Source: a virus (Duplodnaviria > Caudoviricetes). From it: a stretch of DNA of 64,000 nt. The stretch is taken from positions 32,001-96,000 of the IMG/VR virus record IMGVR_UViG_3300028591_000074. One strand, given 5' to 3'. The notes under the pieces are model-generated. The model ran no database searches. It saw nothing but the letters and a program-made list of their open reading frames with translations, and was not told the origin of the DNA. Below are positions 8,701 to 53,818 of this stretch, in pieces. Made by a program: the position numbers and the translations under genes. Position 1 is the stretch's first letter. Each line of letters starts with the position of its first letter.

Positions 8701-8935
8701 AATTTTAAATTCTCCTGTATGTTAGAGTAAAATCTCCCACGACAATGTTATCTTGAGGTTTTATGTCAGCAACACTGTTCCGACAATAACAGAACTGTTT
8801 AATCACTGCCCTTAGAGCTTCAGGCTGGAAGTACACCAAAAGGTAACTATGTATTCTCAAGTAACGTAGTTATTAAGATGCATTTTAATATTTCATCTTA
8901 GCAACTCAGTCTGATTATCCTGTTCCGTCCGGAGA
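8701..8935 (-). ncRNA. omegaRNA (HEARO-like) of IscB element 1
   Basis: Upstream non-coding stretch with typical blocks CAGACTGAG...CTACGTT...GCTCT...ATTAAACAG...AAAACC...ACATTGTCG; boundaries approximate. Confidence 0.75.
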
Positions 8936-8998
8936 ACATATTATATACAAATATCTTAATGATATTCAACCGTACATAATATTATTGTGGATAATAAG

Positions 8999-17616: not shown

Positions 17617-18312
17617 TTAAAAATCTACATCATCAATGTCACTATCCGATGGATCTTCACCAATGTCATCCAAAGATGCATCGACAGATACAGGATCATA
17701 GACTGGTGTAGATGCACCACCCGTTGTACGTGGTGTAACTGAATAGTCCGGAAGATCATCTTCAATAGAACTGCTTGTAGAATTTACAAACAGTGCCTGA
17801 AGTTCTTCCGAGGACATATCCTTGCAGATATTCTCATAGGAATCTGGCATCTTGATATTGAACTTCTCAAGAATTTCCTGATATGTCATAGGTGACTTAC
17901 TGTAAAGTTTAATATTATAAGTTGTGTTAATATCACCAGCAATACCTTCACGTGTTATACGGAATACGTAGTTGCTCGGATTGTCACACTTCTTAAATAC
18001 ATCACGATTCAGCTGCTTTTCAAAAGCTACACCTCTATCCCAAAACAGGAATTCATCTGTAGTCAGATTGTAAAGCGGAATAAACAGTTTATTCTGAACT
18101 TTAATCTTCCTACCGCATACCGGACAATTTCTCCCGATACACTGAACATATCCACTGTAGTCAGCAGACTTTACATAGTGGACATCTGCCAAGAGAACAT
18201 CATTGTAACTCTGGTACAGGAAAACTACATCTGCGAAATCGCCATTATCGGGCAGAATAAATTTTCCTTTGTACTTTTCTTCGTTGTACTGTGCTGCATT
18301 TTTAAATGCCAT
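17617..18312 (-). CDS. Single-stranded DNA-binding protein (gp32-like)
   Basis: H...C...CPVC zinc site, acidic C-terminus ending DDVDF, located in the replication block. Confidence 0.75.
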   Translation of the reverse strand: MAFKNAAQYNEEKYKGKFILPDNGDFADVVFLYQSYNDVLLADVHYVKSADYSGYVQCIGRNCPVCGRKIKVQNKLFIPLYNLTTDEFLFWDRGVAFEKQLNRDVFKKCDNPSNYVFRITREGIAGDINTTYNIKLYSKSPMTYQEILEKFNIKMPDSYENICKDMSSEELQALFVNSTSSSIEDDLPDYSVTPRTTGGASTPVYDPVSVDASLDDIGEDPSDSDIDDVDF

Positions 18313-50090: not shown

Positions 50091-51596
50091 TTACTCAACA
50101 GTTATAGCTTCATATCGTTCAGAGTTGATGACTTTCATCATCATCTCTACTGGTGTCATTCCGATACACTTCATCAGCTGCTTGAACGTTGTTGCTGAAC
50201 TACCAGATACGAGCTGAACACCTTTACGATCCTTATCAGCATGGAATACATCATGTCTTGAATTGACATTCCAGAATACTACGTTCGGGATCTTGTATCC
50301 TGCTTTCTTAAACTCGTGTCGCATCTCTTCGTAGAATGACCACTTATCCTTCCGATATCCCCAATCAGATGTTGCTTGATCAATCTCCATATCTGAAATC
50401 ACGATAATGGACTTAACCATATCCTCATCTGCAATATGATTCTTTACAGCAACATCAAGAATTGTCTGGAACGCAGATTCAAGATTTGTGGAACCACAGT
50501 AGCCATTACCAGATTTAACAACAGAACGGATTTTCTGAGCAAGTGTGTCACCCTTAATCTCAACGATATGAGATTCACTTGAGAATGGGATAAACATATT
50601 ATGGAAATCACCATGATTTCTTTCAGCGAAGTAAATTGCAAGTCCAATCGAATTCGCCATAGGAAGTCCATTATTGCATGTCATAGATCCGGAAAGATCA
50701 GATACAACAATTGCATTAGTGTTTTCTTCCACGTAATTCGGAAGCTGTCTCCACTGGGCTTCTACAGTATCATCATTACCTACAGAAATACCAAATCCCA
50801 TATGGCAGATTTTACGAATAAGATCATAAGGATATAGAGTAGATGAGTTGATCTTCTCTTCTCCAGTAAGTGCTTTTGCTGTGAACTCTTCGAATCTAAC
50901 TGTATCATGACGCGTAAAAGCATTTCTGTAGATCATCATGGCTCTGGATGGAACTGCTGAATACTTAATCTTATCCCATTCTCCGGCAGACATGAGACTT
51001 TCAACAACACCAATCTGCTTACGAAGTTTACGAAGAATTCTCTTGAAATTGTAAACAGGATATCCAAGTTTCTGTGCAGTAAGAATACCAAGTTTTCTTG
51101 TATTCTCCGATGATGCATCCGGTGTCTTGATCCATTTAGCGAGAAGAGATACTGCATTATCTTTATGAAGATTCTGTACATCCTCTTCAAACTGATCCTT
51201 CATCACTTTCCACATATCATCTTCAAGTGGTGTTCCAATAAGAGAATACAGATCATCATATCTTCCATATACGCCAATCAGATCAATGTTTGGTCTGATG
51301 GATTCCGGATGATATTTAGCAAGATACTTGATCAAGTCTCTGAAGACTTTACGTTCACCACAGCCTTCTCGGATGTCACGGCTATAGAAAAGTATCTTAG
51401 TTGCAAGCAACGGATCTTCTGCATATGCTTCTTCAAACAATCGCTGAACATCGACTTCATCTCTTGAACGAAGTGCTCCGATTGTTCCGAAAAGATCGAG
51501 ACATGCATCGCCGGAAGTATTCTTTGCTCTTGCACCATTCTCAGTAAAAGTTTTAGTAGCTTCGTTTCTCATTGCATCTGAAAGTTTCATTTGCAT
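50091..51596 (-). CDS. TROVE-like (DUF2828-type) plus vWA protein, Ro60-related
   Basis: TENGA...CLDLF...FYSRDIREGCGER, YGRYDDL, SLLAKW; vWA MIDAS DLSGSM, GSTNL, VISDMEID, VFWNV. Confidence 0.85.
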   Translation of the reverse strand: MQMKLSDAMRNEATKTFTENGARAKNTSGDACLDLFGTIGALRSRDEVDVQRLFEEAYAEDPLLATKILFYSRDIREGCGERKVFRDLIKYLAKYHPESIRPNIDLIGVYGRYDDLYSLIGTPLEDDMWKVMKDQFEEDVQNLHKDNAVSLLAKWIKTPDASSENTRKLGILTAQKLGYPVYNFKRILRKLRKQIGVVESLMSAGEWDKIKYSAVPSRAMMIYRNAFTRHDTVRFEEFTAKALTGEEKINSSTLYPYDLIRKICHMGFGISVGNDDTVEAQWRQLPNYVEENTNAIVVSDLSGSMTCNNGLPMANSIGLAIYFAERNHGDFHNMFIPFSSESHIVEIKGDTLAQKIRSVVKSGNGYCGSTNLESAFQTILDVAVKNHIADEDMVKSIIVISDMEIDQATSDWGYRKDKWSFYEEMRHEFKKAGYKIPNVVFWNVNSRHDVFHADKDRKGVQLVSGSSATTFKQLMKCIGMTPVEMMMKVINSERYEAITVE

Positions 51597-51644
51597 TTAC
51601 CACCTTTCGTAAAATTTTGATTTTCTTTGATACCGAAAGGGTAT

Positions 51645-51705
51645 CAGGACACCAAATATAGAAATGAGTGGAAGTCATTTGTTTTATATTTGCTGTAGGT
51701 GTCCC
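51645..51705 (-). ncRNA. TROVE-associated RNA A (stand-alone stem-loop)
   Basis: GGACACC-T-ACAGCAA...AAATGA-CTTCCAC-TCATTT...GGTGTCC. Confidence 0.65.
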
Positions 51706-51709
51706 ATAA

Positions 51710-51823
51710 CGACAAGAACAGGAGTCGAACCTATACCACGCCTTGAACAGAGGAAAAAGAATCGCTGTTAACACCACAGGCATGATGTATTGAATTCGTG
51801 TGCTACCGTTACACCATCTTGTC
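51710..51823 (-). ncRNA. TROVE-associated RNA B (tRNA scaffold with insert)
   Basis: GACAAGA/TCTTGTC acceptor, D- and T-arms; insert with hairpin-TA-ACAGCGA and CCT-CTGTTCA-AGG. Confidence 0.7.
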
Positions 51824-51830
51824 AAAAGTT

Positions 51831-51900
51831 CAGGACGCATTCTTTGTTGGGTTACAGATTACAATTCTATTCCAAAAGATGTTTTGCTGTATGCGTCCCT
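51831..51900 (-). ncRNA. TROVE-associated RNA C (stand-alone stem-loop)
   Basis: GGACGCAT-ACAGCAA...ATAGA-ATTGTAA-TCTGT...ATGCGTCC. Confidence 0.65.
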
Positions 51901-51903
51901 TAG

Positions 51904-52021
51904 TCGGCAAGGATGGACTTGAACCACCAACCCTCAGATCCCATTCAAAGTAAGTTGCGGTTTATATCCCAAACAGGATACAATAAAAAATTCTGATGCT
52001 CTACCGTTGAGCTACCTGCCG
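51904..52021 (-). ncRNA. TROVE-associated RNA D (tRNA scaffold with insert)
   Basis: CGGCAGG/CTTGCCG acceptor, GCTC-AACGGTA-GAGC D-arm, TCAGA/TCTGA stem enclosing hairpin-AA-ACCGCAA and CTTA-CTTTGAA-TGGG. Confidence 0.7.
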
Positions 52022-52038
52022 AAATATTAAATTGATTC

Positions 52039-52118
52039 ATGACACTGCGAAATGGTGGATAATCGTGCAAAATTCATTGCTTGATTGCCTAACATATTGA
52101 TATTGCTGCTAGTGTCAC
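52039..52118 (-). ncRNA. TROVE-associated RNA E (stand-alone stem-loop)
   Basis: TGACACT-A-GCAGCAA...TTTGCAC...AGTGTCA. Confidence 0.6.
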
Positions 52119-52122
52119 GTAG

Positions 52123-52240
52123 TGGACGGGACTGGATTCGAACCAGTGACCTAAGATTTTACAGATCTTCGCAAAAATTGGCTGTAAGAATCACATACAT
52201 GATTCATTTGCATTACGCTCTACCACTGAGCTACCCGCCC
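52123..52240 (-). ncRNA. TROVE-associated RNA F (tRNA scaffold with insert)
   Basis: GGGCGGG/CCCGTCC acceptor, canonical D- and T-arms; insert with hairpin-TT-ACAGCCA before AAGAT-CTGTAAA-ATCTT. Confidence 0.7.
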
Positions 52241-52257
52241 TTATTTTCATTTCATAT

Positions 52258-52270
52258 ATTATAACGATTT
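52258..52270 (-). promoter_or_regulatory. Recurrent AAATCGTTATAAT promoter-like motif upstream of the RNA array and TROVE gene
   Basis: Same motif occurs at about eight intergenic sites on the coding strand. Confidence 0.7.
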
Positions 52271-52884: not shown

Positions 52885-53120
52885 AAATGTGTTTCCTTGA
52901 ACCAACCTACTCAGGAAACGGTAGTAGCCCAAATCCGGTGCTACAAGTTCCATCTAATTTGCCCATGTACAATGCTTTCTTAATCACAGATCGTTGTGAT
53001 AAGGTTGATTGTACGCTCCTGTCGATGTAGGGCCGACACCCGCTATCGCTAACCGGGACAGCTACGGCTCCATATATGTATAGCAGTTCTGCTATCGGTA
53101 CCGTAACATATATGAAGACT

Positions 53121-53252
53121 GTCATCAACTGAAGATTCGAACTTCAGACAGCTACCATTTTGCAGATGGTATTATTGCATCGCAGAAGTCTGCAAACTTG
53201 ATGGTCATTCTCCATCTTGCTGCGAATACACTTGCCTCGTGCGTATTGATGA
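53121..53252 (-). ncRNA. tRNA-Cys(GCA)-like scaffold with about 60-nt structured insert after the D-arm
   Basis: TCATCAA/TTGATGA acceptor, ACCAT-CTGCAAA-ATGGT, TGAAG-TTCGAAT-CTTCA; the insert begins TTCGCAGCAA. Confidence 0.6.
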
Positions 53253-53393
53253 TAATACATGCCGCTGCTCCCTCAACCTAGCTTCATACTCTTGGGAGGT
53301 TGAACCCGCTAAGATTCTTCTTGATGTGCCGGAAGGGACTTAGCGTAGGATGGCATACCCTTCTATCATTATTCACATCAACAGAAGCATGAT

Positions 53394-53500: not shown

Positions 53501-53564
53501 ATGCTAAGGTAGGACTCGAACCTACAACAACCCGTCGGCATTCTTCCAATTGAATTACTTAGCA
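53501..53564 (-). ncRNA. Mini tRNA-like RNA without an anticodon arm
   Basis: TGCTAAG/CTTAGCA acceptor, ATTC-AATTGGAA-GAAT D-arm, CCGACGG stub, GTAGG-TTCGAGT-CCTAC. Confidence 0.65.
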
Positions 53565-53789: not shown

Positions 53790-53818
53790 ATTATATACTA
53801 CAAAATCATAATTGTCAA
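53790..53818 (-). promoter_or_regulatory. Perfect sigma-A promoter driving the ncRNA/tRNA cluster
   Basis: TTGACA-N17-TATAAT on the minus strand. Confidence 0.75.

What the first reader, a model, noticed from the sequence alone, without database searches (positions are those of the whole stretch)
51645..52240. Each array RNA displays a different anticodon-like stem-loop: a possible decoy panel for anticodon nucleases
Seen: downstream of the shared motif each unit has a 7-nt loop shaped like an anticodon loop (N-U-NNN-A/C-N). A: CU-UCC-AC (Gly). B: CU-GUU-CA (Asn). C: AU-UGU-AA (Thr). D: CU-UUG-AA (Gln). E: UU-UGC-AC (Ala, imperfect stem). F: CU-GUA-AA (Tyr). In most units the geometry cannot function in decoding. 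Established: many defence toxins (PrrC, RloC, VapC, PARIS AriB) cut tRNA anticodon loops. Inference: the TROVE-bound RNAs present a library of anticodon baits that titrate or sense such nucleases, or sequester synthetases or modification enzymes.
Basis: partly seen in the sequence, partly recalled or inferred. Interest (0 to 1): 0.85.

Follow-up and report, generated by a model that had tools for sequence, protein, structure and literature searches.

The report
Anticodon-loop display on phage Ro60-partner RNAs
A giant gut-type phage encodes six small RNAs in front of a Ro60-shaped RNA-binding protein; half of them, and about a third of their relatives in other phages and gut bacteria, show a tRNA anticodon loop whose three coding letters change while the rest of the loop stays fixed, which suggests they are baits or docking handles for enzymes that read tRNA anticodons, though no such function is shown.

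Summary
All six loops are at the stated places on the minus strand, but only A (Gly), C (Thr) and F (Tyr) are convincing anticodon stem-loops. B has C37 and a 3-bp stem, D a weak G-U stem, and E folds differently and is lost in 93-94% relatives. In 206 non-redundant homologous units, YU-NNN-AA loops on 5-bp or longer stems occur 26 times against about 0.7 in shuffles. A34 is avoided (2/44 against 28%). One orthologous scaffold carries nine different triplets with U33 and A37 invariant and compensatory stem changes. Only about 32% of units carry a clean loop. The neighbouring DUF2828/DUF7788 protein folds like Ro60/Rsr. A seventh unit with a Lys-UUU loop lies in the phage's main tRNA cluster. 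Anticodon mimicry under selection is likely (about 0.8). The one phenotyped homolog, Bas63 gp130, counters a DNA exonuclease without its RNAs. The scan has noted this RNA-protein family on many other genomes; I found no paper describing it.

The parts
52123..52240 (-). Unit F: complete tRNA body (acceptor, D, T arms) with a 46-nt insert after position 26 holding the handle hairpin plus ACAGCCAA, followed by a 5-bp anticodon stem-loop
   Evidence: Rfam tRNA 49.4 bits; sequence; folds
52158..52164 (-). F loop CU-GUA-AA (Tyr-like); GGA in relatives L267, L268, L274
52038..52118 (-). Unit E: free unit, closing stem plus GCAGCAA; proposed Ala loop 52071-52065 is out of register and not conserved
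51904..52021 (-). Unit D: tRNA body with handle hairpin plus ACCGCAA in the anticodon arm; weak loop CU-UUG-AA at 51950-51944
   Evidence: Rfam tRNA 52 bits
51831..51900 (-). Unit C: free unit, 9-bp closing stem plus ACAGCAA, 5-bp anticodon stem-loop
   Evidence: fold z -3.1
51859..51865 (-). C loop AU-UGU-AA (Thr-like; the same loop with A32 occurs in five distinct ARAGORN-called tRNA-Thr genes of these loci); GCU or GCG in relatives
51710..51823 (-). Unit B: tRNA body with handle hairpin plus ACAGCGA; weak loop CU-GUU-CA (C37, 3 bp) at 51750-51744
   Evidence: Rfam tRNA 39.4 bits
51645..51706 (-). Unit A: free unit, 8-bp closing stem plus ACAGCAA, 6-bp anticodon stem-loop
   Evidence: fold z -3.6; weak Dictyostelium Class I RNA hit, 23.4 bits, below cut-off
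51668..51674 (-). A loop CU-UCC-AC (Gly-like), triplet conserved in relatives
50091..51596 (-). DUF2828/DUF7788 protein, 501 aa, predicted Ro60/Rsr-like HEAT plus vWA ring; presumed binder of the handle
   Evidence: Pfam, PHROG 850 RNA-binding protein, model pLDDT 81, the 13 best PDB hits are all Ro60 family
52255..52269 (-). Conserved element containing a TATAAT hexamer 17 nt before unit F; possible promoter of the array (inference)
   Evidence: conserved in L101, L267-L269, L272, L274, L275; not called by the sigma-70 scan

Best explanation
The array is a set of Y-RNA-like partner RNAs of the adjacent Ro60-like protein. Each RNA has a constant handle (6-9 bp helix plus unpaired ACAGCAA) and an exchangeable tRNA-derived cargo: a whole tRNA body, D plus anticodon plus T arms, a permuted YrlA-type body, or just an anticodon stem-loop. 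SHOWN by comparison: the handle travels with the gene, and in about a third of units the cargo is kept as a canonical anticodon stem-loop whose triplet is switched while loop identity is preserved. INFERRED: the array is transcribed as one RNA and cut at the tRNA bodies by host RNase P/Z, freeing six RNAs; the protein binds the handle; the loop is presented to proteins that read anticodon loops. The most likely readers are tRNA anticodon nucleases of host defence or toxin-antitoxin systems. The particle would then hold, divert or report them, with each phage carrying a small non-redundant set, rather than soak them up in bulk. B, D and E would be decaying or cleavage-resistant members.
For: Handle enrichment: 418 sense against 0 antisense ACAGCAA within 250 nt upstream of 249 homologous genes. 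Loop enrichment with T-loops excluded: YU-NNN-AA on 5 bp or more, 26 observed against about 0.7 shuffled; 7-nt loops 83 against 33, while 4-, 5-, 6- and 8-nt loops are 44-50 against 34-37; A34 2/44 against 28%. Also enriched in distant isolate phages, 7/44 against 2.0, p 0.002. Scaffolds selected without regard to the loop: S1 has 9 distinct loops with U33 9/9, purine-37 9/9 and nine triplets; S2 10/12 and 12/12; S3 5/7 and 7/7. S1 stem is 100% paired with 3 of 5 pairs changed on both sides (rows were chosen by a stem pattern). C38 goes with C36 as in real Asp/Gly loops, 7/12 against 13/98, p 0.001. No locus repeats a triplet, 0/29 against 2.7 expected, p about 0.05. A seventh unit with CU-UUU-AA sits between the phage's two tRNA-Lys genes; tRNA-Lys is the PARIS AriB target (PMC11455837). 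The genome encodes a kinase-phosphatase-ligase and RlaP. Ro60/Y-RNA operons respond to damaged tRNA (PMC7790460).
Against: Three of six window loops are poor, and about 68% of family units have no clean loop. Felixounavirus units often lack U33. There is no binding, expression or cleavage data. Bas63 gp130 rescues T7 on Ppl without its RNAs, and Ppl is a DNA exonuclease (PMC11482910, PMC12904381). Catalytic nucleases are hard to titrate against abundant host tRNA, and many need modified bases (own knowledge). RtcB is near only 14 of 260 loci and absent from this genome. Units are related by descent, so the p-values overstate independence.
Confidence: 0.4

Rival explanations
1. RYPER-like tether. 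The tRNA-derived cargo docks the Ro60-like ring on a housekeeping RNA machine (PNPase, another RNase, a ligase or the ribosome). The anticodon loop is a generic tRNA-shape handle, possibly needing host modification, and the triplet is of secondary importance.
For: YrlA tethers Rsr to PNPase through a tRNA-like domain (PMC4201824). Thermus phage phiLo Ro60 with Yrl RNAs binds and attenuates host PNPase (PMC12135203). YrlA-type permuted bodies carry this same handle in mycobacteriophage, Enterococcus, Bacillus and Felix-like phages. Many units have a T arm or no anticodon loop. The system occurs on bacterial assemblies, sometimes next to rtcB.
Against: It does not explain triplet switching restricted to valid anticodons, C38 tracking C36, or non-repeating triplets within a locus.
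Confidence: 0.27
2. Vestige. Handles are repeatedly grafted onto neighbouring tRNA genes, which then erode. The loops look like anticodons only because of recent origin, and the protein's function needs only the handle.
For: There is a gradient from whole tRNA to bare hairpin. B, D and E are degenerate. Most units lack a clean loop. gp130 works without RNA.
Against: Loops persist after the whole tRNA body is lost (23 of 122 free units without a T arm at 5 bp or more, against 1.7). In S1 the triplet changed to nine states while U33 and A37 never changed and the stem changed compensatorily. A 7-nt change inside an unchanged stem is too short for ordinary recombination (inference).
Confidence: 0.15
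3. Cis-acting sensor. The array is the leader of the Ro60-like mRNA. The protein represses its own translation by binding the last handle, and cleavage of an anticodon loop by a host nuclease switches expression.
For: The last unit ends a median 11 nt before the start codon in homologs.
Against: Units lie downstream of the gene or scattered among tRNA genes in Felix-like, mycobacterial and staphylococcal phages. The seventh unit here is about 64 kb from the gene. In this window a 50-nt spacer with a hairpin separates unit A from the start.
Confidence: 0.12
4. F, D and B are intron-containing tRNA genes that are spliced to decoding tRNAs, and A, C, E are spacers.
For: Deleting 46 nt from F leaves a textbook cloverleaf. 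ARAGORN in intron mode calls all three.
Against: The insert lies at position 26/27 and is too short for a group I intron. No tRNA splicing endonuclease is encoded. F has a short variable arm whether its triplet is Tyr or Ser, both long-arm tRNAs in bacteria, and the phage's own tRNA-Tyr has a long arm. The same handle occurs in free units. Normal tRNAs for all six triplets exist elsewhere in the genome.
Confidence: 0.04

Closest known systems
Bacterial and phage Ro60 (Rsr) with YrlA/YrlB Y RNAs (Rfam RF02553; Chen et al. 2014, PMC4201824; Salmonella rsr-yrlBA-rtcBA, PMC7790460)
   Same: Ro60-like ring; RNAs encoded next to the gene on the same strand; a terminal protein-binding helix with an adjacent conserved motif; tRNA-like cargo; occasional rtcB linkage.
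   Different: Motif is ACAGCAA, not GNCGAA(N)G. The protein is DUF2828/DUF7788 with 11-14% identity to Ro60 structures and no TROVE Pfam hit. YrlA has no anticodon loop because the Ro stem takes its place, whereas these keep a 7-nt U33 loop. The window's tRNA bodies are not permuted and have free acceptor ends. Six or seven RNAs occur rather than two.
Thermus phage phiLo Ro60 with Yrl1/Yrl2 (PMC12135203; PDB 9KOP, 9L5Y)
   Same: Phage-encoded Ro60 ring with small RNAs directly upstream; second and third best structural hits.
   Different: CGAA motif; the word anticodon does not occur in that paper; shown partner is PNPase.
Bas63 (Felixounavirus) gp130, counter to Ppl (PMC11482910)
   Same: Same protein family (33% identity over 490 aa, E 6e-80); four ACAGCAA-type units lie downstream among its tRNA genes. 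The authors guessed that Y RNAs exist there.
   Different: The phenotype is against an ssDNA exonuclease and needs no RNA. Its loops mostly lack U33. The RNAs were not identified in the paper.
Nuclease-resistant phage tRNAs (T5 tRNA-Lys against PARIS; van den Berg 2023, PMC10264068; PMC11455837)
   Same: Phage tRNA-derived RNA used against anticodon nucleases.
   Different: Those are functional tRNAs mutated to avoid cleavage. These are non-decoding and mostly keep the host-like loop.
Dictyostelium Class I RNAs (Rfam RF01414; 10.1101/2020.04.05.026054)
   Same: Short stem joining the 5' and 3' ends, a conserved unpaired motif next to the 5' strand, variable interior; weak Rfam hit exactly on unit A.
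   Different: 23.4 bits against a cut-off of 41.5; eukaryotic; reported binder is an RRM protein; no anticodon loops reported in the passages read.

Membership tests
Ro60/Rsr-Y RNA (YrlA class) | Partner protein is a HEAT-repeat plus vWA Ro60 ring | tested here: met
   All 13 PDB hits with E up to 0.001 are Ro60/Rsr, TM 0.36-0.55. By fold only: no TROVE Pfam hit and no sequence hit in PDB
Ro60/Rsr-Y RNA (YrlA class) | RNA genes within about 4 kb of the gene, same strand | tested here: met
   Array ends 50 nt before the start; strand-specific enrichment in homologs
Ro60/Rsr-Y RNA (YrlA class) | GNCGAA(N)G Ro-binding motif | tested here: not met
   Absent from the six units on reading the sequence; ACAGCAA instead
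Ro60/Rsr-Y RNA (YrlA class) | Match to Rfam YrlA or Y_RNA at gathering score | tested here: not met
Ro60/Rsr-Y RNA (YrlA class) | Permuted tRNA-like domain (T arm, capped acceptor, D arm) | tested here: not met
   Window bodies are unpermuted; the permuted form with the same handle occurs in L011, L012, L019, L261, L285, L288
Ro60/Rsr-Y RNA (YrlA class) | RNA is expressed and bound by the protein | not testable with these tools
Anticodon-nuclease decoy (proposed class) | U33 and purine-37 conserved while the triplet varies in orthologous units | tested here: met
Anticodon-nuclease decoy (proposed class) | Every unit presents a stable 7-nt loop | tested here: not met
   3 of 6 in the window; 210 of 662 in the family
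Anticodon-nuclease decoy (proposed class) | Triplets enriched for known nuclease targets | tested here: inconclusive
   Lys UUU, Asn GUU, Ser GCU, Asp GUC, Cys GCA and Tyr GUA lead, but about 20 triplets occur, AT bias explains part (U/A36 35/44 against 65%, p 0.03), and nearly every tRNA has some known nuclease (own knowledge)
Anticodon-nuclease decoy (proposed class) | Bound or cut by a nuclease and protective in vivo | not testable with these tools
   needs experiment
Intron-containing tRNA | Intron at 37/38 or self-splicing, with a splicing enzyme and matching identity elements | tested here: not met
   Insert at 26/27, 46 nt; no PF01974 in the genome; short variable arm with Tyr/Ser triplets
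Dictyostelium Class I RNA | Terminal stem plus 11-nt motif scoring above the family cut-off | tested here: inconclusive
   Unit A 23.4 bits, E 0.61, cut-off 41.5; architecture as described

The most novel reading that the evidence does not exclude
DUF2828 (Ro60-like) proteins and their ACAGCAA-handle RNAs form a programmable counter-defence particle. The RNA's anticodon loop is a swappable bait that selects which host tRNA nuclease (or other anticodon reader) is captured or sensed, and each phage carries a non-redundant panel that is re-tuned by changing the triplet.
Probability: 0.3. Interest if true: 0.9.

Novelty: new variant of a known kind. Interest (0 to 1): 0.66.

Why it matters
The protein family is present in 710 phage records, including lab models (Felix O1 relatives, Listeria P100, mycobacteriophage cluster L, Campylobacter CP81), and in Lachnospiraceae genomes, yet I found no description of its RNA partners. 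Known Y RNAs mimic the tRNA elbow. These add an anticodon loop that appears to be under selection while its triplet switches. If the loops engage anticodon nucleases, this is a new RNA-based route by which phages meet tRNA-cutting immunity, distinct from resistant tRNAs and from repair ligases. It is directly testable in E. coli with Bas63, for which a knockout library exists.

Tried and rejected
First enrichment count was inflated by T-loops (UUCRA), which fit the anticodon pattern; it was redone without them. The flank-permutation test of exact loop matches (67 against 36) is confounded by chance hairpins and is not relied on. PDB sequence search found nothing. RtcB, CCA-adding enzyme, Rnl2-type ligase and tRNA splicing endonuclease were not found in the genome. 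One collection-wide pattern was rejected for syntax and the next was too narrow (3 hits); neither was used. Literature searches for DUF2828, ACAGCAA and Ro60 with phage, anticodon or decoy found no description of these RNAs; the library lacks most subscription papers. The ARAGORN intron calls (Gly, Pro, Trp) are artefacts of forcing an intron. The 95-aa ORF at 51553-51840 over the array was not tested directly and is taken as a chance frame.

Full report
Setting. The window is part of a 253.5-kb virus record. The closest genome-collection homologs of the neighbouring gene are on Lachnospiraceae assemblies, so the host is probably a rumen or gut Bacillota (inference). The finding covers a 600-nt gene-free stretch on the minus strand just upstream of a 501-aa ORF (50091-51596) with DUF2828 and DUF7788 domains. 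Its predicted structure (pLDDT 81) matches only Ro60/Rsr proteins at E up to 0.001, at 11-14% identity.

Anatomy. Six units alternate. F, D and B are whole tRNA bodies (Rfam tRNA 49, 52 and 39 bits) with about 45 extra nucleotides in the anticodon arm. E, C and A are free units. Each has a short helix followed by an unpaired ACAGCAA-like motif. In free units the helix joins the two ends. In tRNA-bodied units it is a hairpin inserted after the D arm, a circular permutation of the same handle. The handle is family-wide: 418 sense and 0 antisense copies lie within 250 nt upstream of 249 homologous genes, and it recurs in Bacillus, Listeria, Enterococcus, Staphylococcus, Mycobacterium, Campylobacter, Aeromonas, Klebsiella, Synechococcus and Felix-like phages.

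The six loops. All are in the sequence as written. A and C fold as 7-nt loops on 6- and 5-bp stems with high probability. F has a perfect stem at the canonical place but competes with another pairing about 4 kcal/mol better in a naive fold. B (3 bp, C37), D (two G-U pairs) and E (out of register) are weak. In relatives with 83-94% identical protein, A, B and D keep their triplets, F switches GUA to GGA, C switches among UGU, GCU and GCG on an unchanged stem, and E is rewritten.

Family test. I extracted 662 handle-bearing units from about 260 loci without looking at their cargo and reduced them to 208 non-redundant ones, 206 long enough to test. With T-loops removed, YU-NNN-AA loops on stems of 5 bp or more number 26 against about 0.7 in dinucleotide shuffles. 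Seven-nucleotide loops are the most enriched size (83 against 33; 9-nt loops follow at 61 against 29). C32, U33, A37 and A38 dominate, and A34 is avoided, as in bacterial tRNA. Distant isolate phages show the effect too (7/44 against 2.0). In scaffold S1, three of five stem pairs change compensatorily and none breaks (rows were picked by a stem pattern, so this leans in favour). Position 38 follows the triplet as in real Asp and Gly tRNAs (p 0.001). No locus repeats a triplet (0/29, expected 2.7, p about 0.05). Limits: the units share ancestry, only 32% have a clean loop, 61 of 239 loci have none, and Felix-like units keep a 7-nt loop but often not U33.

Not decoding tRNAs. The free units have no acceptor stem. 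The bodies have inserts at 26/27 with no splicing enzyme in the genome. F keeps a short variable arm with Tyr or Ser triplets. The phage has ordinary tRNAs for all six triplets. A seventh free unit with a perfect Lys-UUU loop lies at genome positions 18112-18174, between the two tRNA-Lys genes and about 64 kb from the protein gene, which favours action in trans.

Mechanism. Shown: linkage of handle and gene; Ro60-like predicted fold; selection-like conservation of anticodon-loop form with triplet switching (my estimate 0.8 that this is functional mimicry). Inferred: expression, processing at the tRNA bodies, binding, and the identity of the loop reader. Anticodon nucleases are the best single guess. 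Bacterial Ro60/Y-RNA operons are switched on by broken tRNAs (PMC7790460), phages counter tRNA nucleases with their own tRNAs (PMC10264068, PMC11455837), these genes often sit in phage tRNA clusters, and this genome carries a kinase-phosphatase-ligase and RlaP near its main tRNA cluster. Simple titration is unlikely against a catalytic enzyme and abundant host tRNA (own knowledge), so capture or sensing on the ring is the more plausible form. Against: Bas63 gp130 is a homolog whose known effect is on Ppl, an ssDNA exonuclease, and it works without the RNAs. Known Y RNAs tether Ro60 to PNPase (PMC4201824, PMC12135203). Many bacterial loci have no tRNA cluster nearby (63 of 80; their neighbours were not formally annotated).

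Comparison and verdict. It works like a Ro60/Y-RNA particle but fails the YrlA membership tests for motif, Rfam score and topology, so it is a new variant, not a member. I found no paper on these RNAs or on anticodon display by Y RNAs. The scan's own notes record the family on many other genomes, two of them remarking on anticodon loops; these are unchecked and add no independent weight. Interest 0.66: the loop conservation is real, unexpected for Y-like RNAs and testable in a model phage, but the decoy function is a hypothesis and half of this window's loops are weak.

Noticed in passing
G000:C1:18112-18174 (minus strand; locus L293), outside the window: Seventh free handle unit with a perfect CU-UUU-AA (Lys) stem-loop, between tRNA-Lys(CUU) and tRNA-Lys(UUU) in the main tRNA cluster.
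   Followed up: yes
window 53118-53256 (-): tRNA-shaped RNA with a Cys-like CU-GCA-AA stem-loop and an insert of about 60 nt after the D arm that begins with GCAGCAA but lacks a clear handle helix; possible further member (fold z -1.9).
   Followed up: partly
window 51628-51646 (-): Small hairpin directly after unit A, conserved in position in relatives L101, L267-L272 and L274-L277; no U-run, so a processing or stability signal rather than a terminator.
   Followed up: no
window 53790-53818 (-): Perfect sigma-70 consensus promoter (12/12) heading the 1.5-kb non-coding island upstream of the array.
   Followed up: no
window 53501-53564 (-): tRNA-like RNA lacking an anticodon arm (Rfam 44.4 bits).
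   Followed up: no
L261:12080-12900 (Bas63, MZ501086): Four ACAGCAA-type units among the tRNA genes behind gp130, one a complete YrlA-type permuted tRNA with a CC-GGU-AA loop (CU-GGU-AA in SUSP2); the first unit's 7-nt loop differs among Felix relatives (GUA, CGA, GUU triplets). Two annotated hypothetical CDS on the opposite strand overlap them.
   Followed up: partly
L263:216-3492 (-) (G000 about 6.8-10.1 kb): Kinase-phosphatase-RNA ligase fusion (741 aa) next to an RlaP nucleotidyltransferase; a second, diverged copy of the ligase gene is near 244-246 kb, and the contig ends repeat five tRNA genes.
   Followed up: partly
L198:4541-5734, L145, L189, L258 and others: rtcB-like gene next to the DUF2828 gene in some bacterial loci (14 of 260 loci have one within the fetched flank), echoing the Salmonella rsr-yrl-rtcBA layout.
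   Followed up: partly
L113, L199, L089, L118: Some units display a UCA triplet (reads the stop codon UGA).
   Followed up: no
window 8727-8963 (-): HEARO RNA match above the Rfam cut-off.
   Followed up: no
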